Assembly (NCBI RefSeq): GCF_009914755.1
Contig: NC_060945.1
Source: the human T2T-CHM13v2.0 reference genome, Homo sapiens
Length of the DNA: 64,000 nucleotides
Direction: 5' to 3' (one strand)
The notes below the pieces were generated by a model, which made no database searches, was not told the DNA's origin, and saw nothing but the letters and a program-made list of their open reading frames with translations. The translations under genes were made by a program, and so were the position numbers. Shown in pieces: positions 43,931 through 46,640 of this stretch (position 1 is its first letter; each line of letters starts with the position of its first letter).

Positions 43931-44253
43931 CTGTTGAACTGTGTGTTTGTGTGATGTCATCACATGCCTGAGAGCTCTGCTGCCATGTGTCAGCGCCTAG
44001 TGGGTTCCGAGGTGTGGCTGTCAGCGCTCCTCCCGGGGCCATCACCATGCACACCCATCTGTTCCCCTTTTGCTCATTTCACACTCACAGTGGCCGGCAC
44101 AGCACAGGTCAGCAGAGGCCTTGACCACAGCATCCCAGTGAACCTCAGCCTCGTTCTGCCCACCTGCCTCTGGCACCTGGTGACATTTGATAATCTCACA
44201 AGAGGCCGTGATGCCTCAGGGCCTGTCCCAGGGAGCATGCCGCTTCCTCAGAG
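43931..44253 (+). repeat. Left arm of a ~325-bp inverted duplication
   Basis: Reverse complement of 46313-46640. The ORF track shows it too: 43964+ and 46249- share GSEVxLSALLPGPSPCTPICSP. Confidence 0.96.
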
Positions 44254-44479
44254 GTGTCTGTCTGGTGGGACTGCCCGAGCATGGGGACGTGCAGTTGCAG
44301 GGGCAGCTGAGCGGCAGGAGGGACCTCCTGGCCAGGCCAGGGCACAGGCAGCTCCCCCAGCCCCCACGGCACCTTCTCCTGACTCTACTTGCTCCACTTA
44401 CATGGCTGGGTGTTGCTCCCCGGTGCAGGTACCTGGTGAGGGCGCCTGAGTCTCCCCTCACTCTCTCCTTGCCTCCCAG

Positions 44480-44636
44480 GTACCAGATCAATGCCCGCAC
44501 AGAGCTGGCGGTCCGCTACAATGACATCTCACCGCTGGAGAACCACCACTGCGCCGTGGCCTTCCAGATCCTCGCCGAGCCTGAGTGCAACATCTTCTCC
44601 AACATCCCACCTGATGGGTTCAAGCAGATCCGACAG
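44480..44636 (+). CDS. PDE9A: PDE9A exon [23 protein letters not shown]...KQIRQ (157 nt)
   Basis: gcctcccag|G and CAG|gtgtgt; LENHH motif; phase 2 to 0. Confidence 0.98.
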
Positions 44637-45082
44637 GTGTGTGGGGTGAGGGCCCTCCCACCGGAGTGGGGGCACATTCAGGGACAGAGCAGCCCCCACT
44701 CTCCATTGGCTGGAAGCTCCCAGAAGCTCCTGGCCACAGCAGTGCCCTGGGGACCCAAGGGAACCCCTCCCTCCTTCCTCACCTCCTCCAGGGCCCAGAG
44801 TGGCGCCCCAAAAAGAGGGTACCCTCGCCATGCGCACGTGTATCCCACTGACCTGCACTTCCCAGCCTGTATTTAATTCAGCCTTCACTGGCTCCCTTTG
44901 AGATAAATCCTTTGTCCCTCTTCCAGCCCAAGAAACTGAGGCTTAGCAAAGGTAGGGAGCCTGCCCAAGGAGGGGACAGGCCCTGGACAGACACATCTGC
45001 TGCATCCAACATAGGAGAGCTGCCCCCTGCCCCATAACCCCAGCTGCTGTCACCTGCCACCCACAGCCCAGTCAGCCCCCTT

Positions 45083-45389
45083 CCTTTTATTTATTTTTTT
45101 TTCTTTTGAGACAGAGTCTCGCTCTGTTGCCCAGGCTGGAGTGTAATGGCAGGATCTCGGCTCACTGCAACCTCCACCTCCTGGGTTCAAGCAATTCTCC
45201 TGCCTCAGCCTCCCAAATAGCTGGGATTACAGGCATGCGCCACCAAGCCGGCTAATTTTCGGTATTTTTAATAGAGACGGGGTTTCATCATGTTGGCCAG
45301 GCTGGTCTTGAACTCCAGACCTTAGGTGATCCACCTGCCTCGACCTCCCAAAGTGCTGGGATTACAGGTGTGAGCCACCACGCCCGGCC
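45083..45389 (-). mobile_element. Alu (S-type)
   Basis: Alu consensus; ccccttcc flanks. Confidence 0.92.
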
Positions 45390-45614
45390 ACCCCTTCCAT
45401 TTTAGATAAGGGGGCTTTATGCCTCTCAGGGCGTGATGGGAGGAGAGTGAGAGGATATCTGCGTGAGAGGAAGATGACCTGGTCCACCTGCCCCAGACAA
45501 ACACCTCCAGCTCACCGAAATAACGCCCCATTCCACACGGGAATTCCTCATCAAACCCTCACTCTCTGACATTTGCAGGGGAGGGAAGCTCTCGGAGTAA
45601 ACCCTGGGAGAAAT

Positions 45615-46052
45615 GTGTTGGGTTGAATAGCAGCGTCCTTCAAACAAGGTCCACCTCCCGTGAATGTGATCTTATTTGGAAAAGGGTCTTTGCATTTGTA
45701 CTTGTTAAGATTTCCAGATAAGATCAGTGTGGATTGTCTAAGGGGGCCGTAAATCCAAAGACTAGTGTCCTTGGACGAGGAGACAGAGTAGAAAACAGCC
45801 CAGACACAGAGGAGAAGGCCGCATGAAGACGCAGTGATTGGAGATTTGAGTGATGCAGCCCCAAACTAAGGGACTTCGGGGCCCCCAGGAGCAGGAGGAG
45901 ACAAGGAAGGACCCTCCCCTGGAGTCTTCTTTGAGAGCAGGGCCCTGCCCACACTTTGATCTTGGTTCTGGCTTCCAGAACTGTGAGAGAATGAGTTTGT
46001 TGTTTTAAGCCGCCTAGTTTGTGGTACTTTGTGTGGCGGCCCCAGGACACTC
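45615..46052 (+). mobile_element. MLT1-type MaLR LTR
   Basis: tgtgttgggttgaat...gtgatcttatttggaaaagggtctttgca...cttccagaactgtgaga...gtggtactttg. Confidence 0.82.
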
Positions 46053-46312
46053 ACCCAGGGCACCGTCTTCTGCGGTTCCACAAGGCAGACCTCAGCCATT
46101 CGAAGTCTAAGTGGCTTCCTTCCAGAGGCAGCAAGAAAGACTGCCTGGACTTCAGCACTGGGAAGATACTCACCACCCTCCAGGCGTGCTGCTGAGCCTC
46201 CCTTTATCAGAGAGCAGCAGCCTCTTCTACCATGGCTTTCCAATTTGTCTACGCTTCCAGGAAGTTCAAAGCCCAGTGTAAAAAACTGAAGTCAGTGAAG
46301 CATTTGGGGAAG

Positions 46313-46640
46313 CTCCGAGGAAGCAGCATGCTCCCTGGGACGGGGCCCTGAGGCATCACGGCCTCTTGCGAAATTGTCAAATGCCACCATGTGCCAGAGG
46401 CAGAGGTGGGCAGAACCAGGCTGTGGTTCATTGGGATGCTGTGGTCAAGGCCTCTGCTGGCCTGTGCTGTGCCAGCCACTGTGAGTGTGAAATGAGCAGG
46501 AGAACAGATGGGTGTGCATGGTGATGGCCCCGGGAGGAGCGCCGACAGCCGCACCTCAGAACCCACTCGGCGCTGACATACGGCGGCAGCGCTCTCGGGC
46601 CTGTGATGACATCATTGCACAAACATACACAATTCAATAG
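46313..46640 (-). repeat. Right arm of the inverted duplication
   Basis: About 90% identity to 43931-44253 by hand alignment. Confidence 0.96.

What the first reader, a model, noticed from the sequence alone, without database searches (positions are those of the whole stretch)
43931..46640. Non-Alu ~325-bp inverted duplication clamping a single catalytic exon
43931-44253 and 46313-46640 are reverse complements. By hand I count about 26 substitutions and 5 small indels, with a 41-bp perfect core gcgctcctcccggggccatcaccatgcacacccatctgttc. I do not recognise the arm as a known repeat. In pre-mRNA the arms could form a long duplex, more identical than typical Alu pairs, looping out ~2.06 kb that contains only exon 44480-44636 (LENHH motif). 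Skipping that 157-nt exon gives AC|G GAA TGA, an immediate stop, so the duplex could be a structure-controlled NMD switch. About 11 mismatches are A:C, which ADAR favours, so editing could tune it. At DNA level the arms could mediate inversion of the exon. The mismatches show no clear excess of G:U-compatible changes, so selection on structure is not demonstrated.
Basis: partly seen in the sequence, partly recalled or inferred. Interest (0 to 1): 0.8.

Follow-up and report, generated by a model that had tools for sequence, protein, structure and literature searches.

The report
Unique inverted duplication flanking PDE9A exon
Two ~325-base stretches found nowhere else in the human genome lie in opposite orientation in the introns on either side of one catalytic exon of PDE9A, so the pre-mRNA should fold into a long hairpin around that exon, but nothing yet shows that this changes splicing.

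Summary
43930-44253 and 46313-46641 are reverse complements: 295 matches, 26 substitutions, 5 indels. They lie 2,059 nt apart and enclose only exon 44480-44636.

The arms are not a dispersed repeat. Searches of the 3.1-Gb T2T assembly with either arm, or with the surrounding intron pieces, find only these two copies. A neighbouring old repeat run as a control gives 2,110 candidates. There are no target-site duplications and homology ends sharply. I read it as a local inverted duplication, roughly 20-45 My old by recalled rates.

The predicted RNA stem is stronger than local inverted Alu pairs (-624 versus -441 and -472 kcal/mol). It dominates the MFE of a 4.7-kb pre-mRNA piece. Skipping the exon gives an immediate stop codon.

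The substitution pattern looks neutral and the exon's splice sites are not weak. Published PDE9A variants keep the catalytic exons constant (PMC1647287). No circRNA, editing or inverted-repeat report for PDE9A was found.

Verdict: a real, unannotated, non-repeat exon-flanking complementary pair. It is a new member of a known kind, and a regulatory switch is unproven.

The parts
43930..44253 (+). Left arm (324 nt) in the intron upstream of the exon. It starts 625 nt after the previous 5' splice site and ends 226 nt before the 3' splice site. It lies inside the RefSeq 'enhancer' feature 43870-44401 listed by the hub.
46313..46641 (+). Right arm (329 nt), the reverse complement of the left arm, in the downstream intron. 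It starts 1,676 nt after the 5' splice site and ends 1,144 nt before the next 3' splice site.
44024..44064 (+). 41-nt perfect core of the repeat. Its partner lies in 46502-46542. The length is within neutral expectation (P = 0.36).
44480..44636 (+). The enclosed 157-nt PDE9A coding exon (peptide [28 protein letters not shown]...). The length is not a multiple of 3, so skipping gives T-E-stop.
44254..46312 (+). 2,059-nt spacer, the loop of the predicted pre-mRNA hairpin.
45085..45390 (-). Antisense Alu inside the loop. In the 4.7-kb MFE it pairs within itself and its immediate surroundings, not with the arms.
45640..46050 (.). Old dispersed repeat inside the loop, used as the positive control for the genome search (2,110 candidates, hits at 70-76% identity). 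That it looks like a MaLR-type LTR is recalled, not tested.

Best explanation
This is a locus-specific inverted duplication of about 324 bp of unique intronic DNA, not two transposon copies. Most likely one arm was copied in reverse orientation about 2 kb away by a replication or repair template switch (a templated insertion). From arm divergence this happened tens of millions of years ago, so probably within primates. The two arms have since drifted apart neutrally.

Because the arms sit in the two introns flanking PDE9A exon 44480-44636, the pre-mRNA is predicted to form a roughly 300-bp imperfect duplex with the exon in a 2.06-kb loop. The expected consequences are inferred, not shown. First, the duplex should be an ADAR substrate, that is, a non-Alu editing cluster. 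Second, it should favour some back-splicing (a 157-nt circle) and/or loop-out skipping of the exon, and the skipped mRNA carries a premature stop and should be removed by NMD. I judge the element to be mainly a tolerated passenger whose effect on PDE9A output is small, not a selected switch.
For: Shown:
- Two copies only in 3.1 Gb, searching with either arm (the right arm even at E <= 10) or with the 1,175-nt and 1,280-nt intron pieces around them. The first look gave 2 candidates each time.
- The same tool finds 2,110 candidates, with 58 matches at 70-76% identity among the 40 scored, for the neighbouring old repeat.
- In the 64-kb window this is the only long low-copy pair apart from a tandem duplication at 60981-61296 and a weak 154-column match.
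- There is no target-site duplication, and the flanks are no more alike than shuffles: 145 of 200 (outer) and 128 of 200 (inner) shuffles reach the observed score.
- No Rfam family matches in the arms. ORFs in the arms are not conserved between them and have no Pfam match, 0 of 4.
- The divergence pattern is neutral-like: p = 0.081, K2P = 0.087, ts:tv 20:6, 11 of 26 substitutions CpG-type, non-CpG divergence 12/285 = 0.042, 5 indels. G:U-compatible versus A:C transitions are 9:11. Differences are spread 11/5/6/9 over the quarters of the arm, and the longest perfect run has P = 0.36.
- The predicted duplex is -624.0 kcal/mol with 304 intermolecular pairs. The arms folded separately give -116.2 and -133.1 kcal/mol, and 20 shuffles give a mean of -245.4.
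- In the MFE of 43222-47899, 301 of 324 left-arm nucleotides pair with the right arm.
- Skipping gives a premature stop.

From papers:
- Exon-flanking inverted pairs of arbitrary sequence cause exon skipping (PMC10901737, passages).
- Inverted Alu pairs flank many constitutive exons too, and the MFE difference between skippable and constitutive exons is small, d = -0.12 (PMC11952303, Results part 1).
Against: - No primate or other mammalian genome could be searched. The age, the direction of copying (which arm is the source) and the absence of selection are therefore inferred from one genome only.
- Gene conversion between the arms would make the duplication older than the divergence suggests.
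- A neutral-looking substitution pattern over 321 aligned sites has little power. A stem this long tolerates many mismatches, so selection for 'a stem' in general could leave no G:U excess.
- The engineered Tbxt pairs (297/297 and 220 bp) gave clear skipping. The PDE9A stem (295 Watson-Crick plus 9 G:U of 321) is better matched than the TBXT Alu pair (228 of 297) at a similar distance (2,059 versus 1,448 nt). A sizeable splicing effect therefore cannot be excluded.
- NMD would hide skipped transcripts from the cDNA surveys behind PMC1647287.
- The left arm lies in a RefSeq 'enhancer' feature (hub table), so a DNA-level role is possible.
- No junction microhomology that would mark a template switch was demonstrated.
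Confidence: 0.6

Rival explanations
1. Selected splicing regulator. The duplex is a structure-gated switch that diverts PDE9A pre-mRNA to an NMD-targeted exon-skipped mRNA and/or a 157-nt circRNA. ADAR editing or helicases tune stem strength and hence PDE9A dosage.
For: The geometry is right: the arms lie in the two flanking introns with a 2,059-nt loop. The predicted stem is very stable and dominant and stronger than local inverted Alu pairs. Skipping creates a premature stop 522 nt before the last junction. Eleven A:C mismatches could be 'repaired' by editing. Engineered non-Alu reverse-complement pairs do cause skipping in Tbxt (PMC10901737, passages). Titles and abstract starts in the listing report that reverse complementary matches promote both back-splicing and skipping (PMC8330042) and that ADARs regulate circRNA output (PMC8938519).
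Against: There is no sign of selection on pairing: 9 G:U versus 11 A:C, 5 indels and a CpG-decay-dominated pattern. The exon's acceptor has 15/17 pyrimidines with CAG|G and the donor matches 7/9, which is not weak compared with its sister exons. In PMC11952303 only exons with a weak acceptor and strong donor showed a link between structure and skipping. Described PDE9A variants leave the catalytic exons untouched. No PDE9A circRNA, editing or inverted-repeat report was found in main texts. Only 2 of the 11 A:C adenosines have A as 5' neighbour, 7 have C and 2 have G; the neighbour preference of ADAR is recalled.
Confidence: 0.12
2. Two independent insertions of one dispersed or low-copy transposable element or LTR in opposite orientation.
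For: This is the usual origin of exon-flanking inverted pairs (Alu). The genome-search tool warns that counts are lower bounds and that very common words are skipped.
Against: Only 2 first-look candidates appear in 3.1 Gb for either arm, for the right arm even at E <= 10. The same holds for the flanking intron pieces. The control repeat gave 2,110 candidates down to 70% identity. There are no target-site duplications. The arms hit nothing else in the 64-kb window at word size 7.
Confidence: 0.03
3. DNA-level element. The duplicated unit is a regulatory module (enhancer), and the second copy adds or redistributes transcription-factor binding. The RNA hairpin is a by-product.
For: The left arm lies within the RefSeq functional element 'enhancer 43870-44401' (hub table). 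The arms are GC-rich (58-59%) and keep 8 and 14 CpGs.
Against: In the part of the hub list that is shown, no enhancer feature covers the right arm; 6 further features are not shown. The arm boundaries do not coincide with the enhancer feature. There is no conservation or binding data. The divergence looks neutral.
Confidence: 0.1
4. The arms act as a recombination substrate, producing polymorphic or somatic inversion of the 2-kb segment with the exon, which would inactivate the allele.
For: The arms are inverted, over 300 bp long and close together.
Against: Identity is 92% and the longest uninterrupted match is 41 bp. This is well below the uninterrupted homology of over 130 bp that I recall as needed for efficient mammalian homologous recombination. 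The assembly shows the functional orientation, with intact AG/GT splice sites and frame.
Confidence: 0.03
5. A much older inverted repeat (pan-mammalian) kept similar by recurrent gene conversion between arms, so the 8% divergence underestimates its age.
For: Arms of inverted repeats and palindromes are known to undergo conversion (recalled). No outgroup could be examined.
Against: Differences are spread fairly evenly (11/5/6/9 per quarter) and the longest identical tract is as expected by chance (P = 0.36). No conversion tract is visible.
Confidence: 0.1

Closest known systems
Engineered reverse-complement intron pairs in mouse Tbxt (insRCS, 297 bp; insRCS2, 220 bp) and the natural AluSx1-AluY pair around human TBXT exon 6 (Xia et al. 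2024, PMC10901737; passages read)
   Same: A ~300-nt intronic sequence and its reverse complement sit in the two introns flanking a single exon. A stem-loop is predicted to trap the exon. The distances are similar: 1,448 nt between the TBXT Alus and 2,059 nt here. The paper shows that the effect does not need Alu sequence.
   Different: The PDE9A pair is natural and made of unique sequence. Skipping is out of frame (premature stop, NMD), whereas the TBXT isoform is in frame. No skipped isoform has been shown for PDE9A. Stem identity is 295/321, lying between the Alu pair (228/297) and the engineered pair (297/297).
Inverted Alu pairs and reverse complementary matches flanking exons, which promote circRNA formation and loop-out exon skipping (PMC11952303, abstract and Results part 1; PMC8330042 and PMC8938519, listing only; Jeck 2013, Zhang 2014, Ivanov 2015 and Lev-Maor 2008 are recalled)
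   Same: The architecture and the proposed mechanism are the same, and ADAR is expected to act on the stem.
   Different: This is not a repeat family, so there are only two copies in the genome and no competing partners elsewhere in the transcript. The predicted stem is longer and better matched than local inverted Alu pairs: -624 versus -441 and -472 kcal/mol, and 304 versus 246 and 259 pairs.
Mouse Sry, whose long inverted repeats flank the exon and drive a circular transcript (Capel 1993, Dubin 1995; recalled, not read here)
   Same: Non-SINE, locus-specific inverted duplications flank one exon.
   Different: The Sry arms are many kilobases long and nearly identical, and the circle is the major product in testis. 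Here the arms are 0.3 kb and 8% diverged, and no circle is known.
Template-switch mutations that create reverse-complement copies and RNA hairpins (PMC8794818, PMC7954356, PMC10710096; titles and abstract starts from the listing)
   Same: This is the likely mutational origin: a nearby sequence copied in reverse orientation, with no target-site duplication.
   Different: As I recall, the published short-range events involve tens of bases over short distances. This one copies about 324 bp to a site about 2 kb away, closer to the kilobase-scale FoSTeS/MMBIR type. No junction microhomology was demonstrated.
Segmental duplications and genomic palindromes
   Same: A low-copy inverted duplication within one locus.
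   Different: At 0.32 kb it is below the conventional threshold of at least 1 kb and 90% identity (recalled). It would therefore be missing from segmental-duplication tracks as well as from repeat tracks.

Membership tests
Dispersed repeat / transposable element family | Multiple copies scattered in the genome | tested here: not met
   Only the two arms are found in 3.1 Gb. The control repeat gives 2,110 candidates.
Dispersed repeat / transposable element family | Target-site duplications flanking each copy | tested here: not met
   The left-arm flanks share no 5-mer or longer. The right-arm flanks share only one non-adjacent 5-mer.
Exon-flanking reverse complementary match (circRNA / loop-out architecture) | Complementary sequences in the intron upstream and the intron downstream of the same exon or exons | tested here: met
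   The arms lie in introns 43305-44479 and 44637-47785, on either side of exon 44480-44636.
Exon-flanking reverse complementary match (circRNA / loop-out architecture) | Predicted stable intramolecular duplex that outcompetes alternative pairings | tested here: met
   -624 kcal/mol with 304 pairs. In the 4,678-nt MFE, 301 of 324 left-arm nucleotides pair with the right arm. This is a thermodynamic prediction only.
Exon-flanking reverse complementary match (circRNA / loop-out architecture) | Observed back-splice junction or exon-skipped transcript that depends on the arms | not testable with these tools
   No RNA-seq or circRNA database is available. Main-text searches found no PDE9A circRNA. 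Described variants keep the catalytic exons. Supplementary circRNA tables were not searched.
ADAR-edited long dsRNA (editing-enriched region) | Long, nearly perfect intramolecular dsRNA in a transcribed region | tested here: met
   A predicted stem of about 300 bp within the PDE9A pre-mRNA.
ADAR-edited long dsRNA (editing-enriched region) | Clustered A-to-G mismatches in RNA-seq | not testable with these tools
   No editing database is available. The search for PDE9A plus A-to-I gave 3 papers, judged irrelevant by title (listing only).
Segmental duplication | At least 1 kb at 90% identity or more (threshold recalled) | tested here: not met
   324/329 bp; 92% identity over aligned bases and 89% counting gaps.
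Structured RNA gene (miRNA, snoRNA and the like) | Match to a curated RNA family | tested here: not met
   Rfam scan of 43000-48000 at E <= 1 gave 5 matches, all inside the Alu at 45106-45390 and none in the arms.

The most novel reading that the evidence does not exclude
A primate-lineage templated inverted duplication turned a constitutive catalytic exon of PDE9A into a structure-gated 'poison skip'. When the ~300-bp unique-sequence stem forms, exon 44480-44636 is looped out. The product is then either an NMD-targeted mRNA or a 157-nt circRNA. ADAR1 and dsRNA helicase activity set how often this happens. That would link interferon/editing state to cGMP signalling and give humans a PDE9A dosage control that rodents (the pre-clinical models for PDE9 inhibitors) lack. 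It would be a natural counterpart of the engineered Tbxt insRCS allele.
Probability: 0.1. Interest if true: 0.7.

Novelty: new member of a known kind. Interest (0 to 1): 0.35.

Why it matters
Exon-flanking inverted repeats are an established way to cause exon skipping and circRNA formation, but nearly all known natural cases are Alu pairs, which have many competing partners. A unique-sequence pair has exactly one partner. It is therefore a clean natural test of whether a long intronic stem suffices to affect a well-defined constitutive exon.

PDE9A is a drug target; PMC1647287 names the inhibitor BAY 73-6691 as in preclinical development for Alzheimer's disease (passage). If the element is lineage-specific, human and rodent PDE9A pre-mRNA processing would differ.

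The element is also a candidate non-Alu ADAR editing cluster and a candidate endogenous long dsRNA. By my reading it falls below the size cut-off for segmental duplications and belongs to no repeat family, so standard annotation tracks would miss this class. If it proves inert, it is a useful negative example: a stem stronger than the TBXT Alu pair that does not disturb a strong exon.

Tried and rejected
- Rfam scan of 43000-48000: only Alu-derived matches, nothing in the arms.
- ORF and Pfam check of four mechanical ORFs overlapping the arms: 0 of 4 match, and the ORFs are not conserved between the arms. The coding or exon-duplication idea is dropped.
- Extension of homology beyond the arms with gapped alignment of 200-nt outer and inner flanks: scores equal shuffles.
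- Target-site duplication search: none.
- Source versus copy from base composition: the left flanks are 61-66% GC, the right flanks 51-55% and the arms 58-59%. This is too weak to decide, so no direction is claimed.
- CpG retention asymmetry: 8 CpGs in the left arm and 14 in the right. Of the 11 CpG-type differences, 8 keep the CpG in the right arm and 3 in the left. By my own rough estimate this is not significant, and it is not interpreted.
- Short direct 6-mers at the two junctions of the right arm, seen by eye, are post hoc and were not used.
- Gene-conversion tracts: none visible.
- Literature: PDE9A plus circRNA gave 7 papers; the one opened mentions PDE9A only in a pathway gene list. 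PDE9A plus A-to-I gave 3 irrelevant titles. PDE9A plus 'inverted repeat' gave 0. circPDE9A and variants gave 0.
- Comparative genomics in primates and mammals could not be done: the genome tools hold only this assembly and prokaryotes (one search states it has no relatives here).
- One call failed on a syntax rule for search terms and was re-sent corrected.
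Full report
**1. Is it there?**

Yes. The repeat finder on 43000-48000 gives four collinear inverted blocks (117, 95, 60 and 35 nt at 89-95% complementarity) that tile 43952-44253 against 46313-46614. A gapped local alignment of generous flanks joins them into 43930-44253 (324 nt) against the reverse complement of 46313-46641 (329 nt). 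It has 295 matches, 26 mismatches and 5 indels totalling 11 nt.

The 41-nt perfect core is 44024-44064. The match has E = 1.5e-118 in the window and 3.7e-115 in the genome. The core itself is unremarkable: with 31 difference events, 36% of 20,000 random placements give a perfect run of at least 41 nt.

**2. Is it a repeat family?**

No, as far as these tools can see. The window's own assembly (3.1 Gb, 24 contigs) was searched four ways:
- with the left arm;
- with the right arm at E <= 10;
- with the whole upstream intron, 43305-44479;
- with 46051-47330 around the right arm.

Each time the first look produced exactly 2 candidates, the query itself and the other arm. The tool warns that counts are lower bounds, so I ran a positive control. 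The neighbouring stretch 45640-46050 looked to me like an old LTR-type repeat. It gave 2,110 first-look candidates, and the 40 scored yielded 58 matches at 70-76% identity. A family at roughly 70% identity or better would therefore have been seen.

Other checks agree:
- Within the 64-kb window a word-7 blastn finds no other partner for the arms, while the Alu in the loop hits about 30 Alus.
- A window-wide self-comparison finds no other long low-copy pair, apart from a tandem duplication at 60981-61296 and one weak old-repeat match.
- There are no target-site duplications.
- Homology stops sharply: 200-nt outer and inner flanks align no better than shuffles, with 145/200 and 128/200 shuffles reaching the observed score.
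- Rfam finds nothing in the arms.
- The mechanical ORFs in the arms differ between the arms and have no Pfam match.

**3. Origin and age (inferred)**

The facts are two copies, inverted, 2,059 nt apart, with sharp ends and no target-site duplication. This fits a local templated inverted duplication, that is, a replication or repair template switch. Small-scale versions are described as a source of reverse-complement copies and RNA hairpins (PMC8794818, PMC7954356, PMC10710096; listing only). I could not show junction microhomology or decide which arm is the source. Base composition and CpG retention were too weak.

Divergence is p = 0.081 and K2P = 0.087. Of the 26 substitutions, 20 are transitions and 11 are CpG-type, and non-CpG divergence is 12/285 = 0.042.

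| Recalled rate (per site per year) | Age from all sites | Age from non-CpG sites |
|---|---|---|
| 1.0-1.2e-9 | 36-43 My | 18-21 My |
| 0.5e-9 | 87 My | 42 My |
| 2.2e-9 | 20 My | 10 My |

All ages use K/2µ and come. The age is thus tens of millions of years, probably within primates. Without other genomes this is unverified, and gene conversion would make it a minimum.

**4. What the RNA would do (predicted)**

PDE9A is on the + strand, so both arms are in the pre-mRNA. The left arm ends 226 nt before the 3' splice site of exon 44480-44636. The right arm starts 1,676 nt after its 5' splice site.

| Pairing tested | Cofold energy (kcal/mol) | Intermolecular pairs |
|---|---|---|
| The two arms | -624.0 | 304 |
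| Arms folded separately | -116.2 and -133.1 | n/a |
| Left arm with shuffled right arm (20 shuffles) | mean -245.4 (sd 5.6) | n/a |
| Inverted Alu pair 35401-35701 / 35979-36285 | -472.1 | 259 |
| Inverted Alu pair 34667-34951 / 35979-36285 | -441.4 | 246 |
| Same-orientation Alu control | -200.6 | 58 |

In the MFE of the 4,678-nt stretch from exon 43222 to exon 47899, 301 of 324 left-arm nucleotides pair with the right arm. The antisense Alu in the loop (45085-45390) pairs locally and does not compete. These are equilibrium predictions and ignore co-transcriptional splicing and proteins.

**5. Consequence of skipping**

The annotated frame and all AG/GT sites check out. The exon is 157 nt and encodes [23 protein letters not shown]... 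Joining 43304 to 47786 reads AC|G GAA TGA, which is T-E-stop, 522 nt upstream of the last exon junction. By the usual 50-55-nt rule (recalled) the skipped mRNA would be an NMD target.

**6. Is there evidence of a selected switch?**

I find none.
- Transitions split 9 G:U-compatible to 11 A:C, as chance predicts.
- There are 5 indels, and CpG decay accounts for 11 of 26 substitutions.
- Differences are spread 11/5/6/9 across the quarters of the arm.
- The exon is not weakly defined: 15/17 pyrimidines at -20..-4, CAG|G at the acceptor, and a CAG|GTGTGT donor matching 7/9. This is as good as its sister exons.
[quoted passage not shown] NMD could hide a skipped form, however.
- A genome-wide preprint finds inverted Alu pairs flanking many constitutive exons. 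The MFE difference between skippable and constitutive sets is small (d = -0.12). A structure-skipping correlation appears only for exons with a weak acceptor and strong donor (PMC11952303, Results part 1).
- Main-text searches found no PDE9A circRNA, no PDE9A editing report (titles only) and no PDE9A inverted repeat. Supplementary tables of circRNA and editing atlases were not searched and could hold relevant entries.

**7. What speaks for an effect**

The closest known case is strikingly similar. In TBXT, an AluSx1-AluY pair 1,448 nt apart traps exon 6 and causes its skipping. In mouse, inserting a 297-bp reverse complement of the gene's own intron 5 into intron 6 also produced the skipped isoform, and a serendipitous 220-bp pair resembled that design and shortened the tail in homozygotes. 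The authors conclude that no Alu-specific sequence is needed and that higher stem identity gives more skipping (PMC10901737, passages).

The PDE9A stem (295 Watson-Crick plus 9 G:U of 321) is better matched than the TBXT Alu stem (228/297), at a comparable distance. Some skipping or back-splicing, and ADAR editing of the stem, are therefore mechanistically plausible. Of the 11 A:C adenosines, 7 have a 5' C, 2 a 5' A and 2 a 5' G. By the recalled ADAR neighbour preference only a few are ideal.

**8. DNA level**

Inversion by recombination between the arms seems unlikely. Identity is 92% and the longest perfect tract is 41 bp, well below recalled minimum homology lengths. The left arm overlaps a RefSeq 'enhancer' feature (hub table), so a regulatory-DNA reading cannot be excluded, but nothing here tests it.

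**9. Verdict**

It is a unique-sequence inverted duplication that creates a reverse complementary match around one catalytic exon. I file it as a new member of a known kind: exon-flanking complementary intron pairs.

My best reading (0.6) is a neutral, tolerated duplication. Its stem is probably edited and may give low-level circle or skip products. A selected NMD/circRNA switch gets about 0.1. Interest is 0.35, because this is a clean, testable natural analogue of the Tbxt insRCS experiment in a drug-target gene, but there is no functional evidence as yet.

Noticed in passing
window 47373-47653: A (TGGA)n array of about 60 copies (74% matches) followed by a 16-nt-period piece, with strong G-over-C skew (GC skew up to 0.9). 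It ends about 130 nt upstream of the 3' splice site of exon 47786. A related array lies at about 22871-23180 in the window.
   Followed up: no
window 45640-46050: An old dispersed repeat in the loop (2,110 genome candidates). Many of the scored hits sit in closely spaced clusters at matching coordinates on contigs C23 and C24, for example C23:137838-138976 and C24:136987-138125. This suggests tandem arrays of this repeat in the pseudoautosomal region.
   Followed up: no
window 60981-61296: A local tandem duplication: 147 nt at 95% identity plus a more diverged third unit at 73%. It is the only other low-copy duplication in the window. It lies just downstream of LINC01668 exon 60574-60794 and the RefSeq silencer features, inside the masked stretch 60976-61848.
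   Followed up: no
window 46287-46306 / 47053-47072 and 47054-47076 / 47161-47183: A 20-nt inverted match (95%) starts 7 nt outside the inner end of the right arm. Its partner is itself directly repeated 107 nt further on (78%). This may be chance or a trace of a more complex rearrangement at the right-arm site.
   Followed up: no
window 43302-43310: The donor of the exon upstream of the hairpin (43222-43304) is CAC|GTATGT and lacks the usual G at -1. It is the only one of the 15 donors examined with C at that position.
   Followed up: no
window 43930-44253 vs 46313-46641: The right arm keeps 14 CpGs and the left arm 8. Of the 11 CpG-type differences, 8 keep the CpG in the right arm. This might reflect different germline methylation of the two copies, but by my rough estimate it is not significant.
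   Followed up: partly
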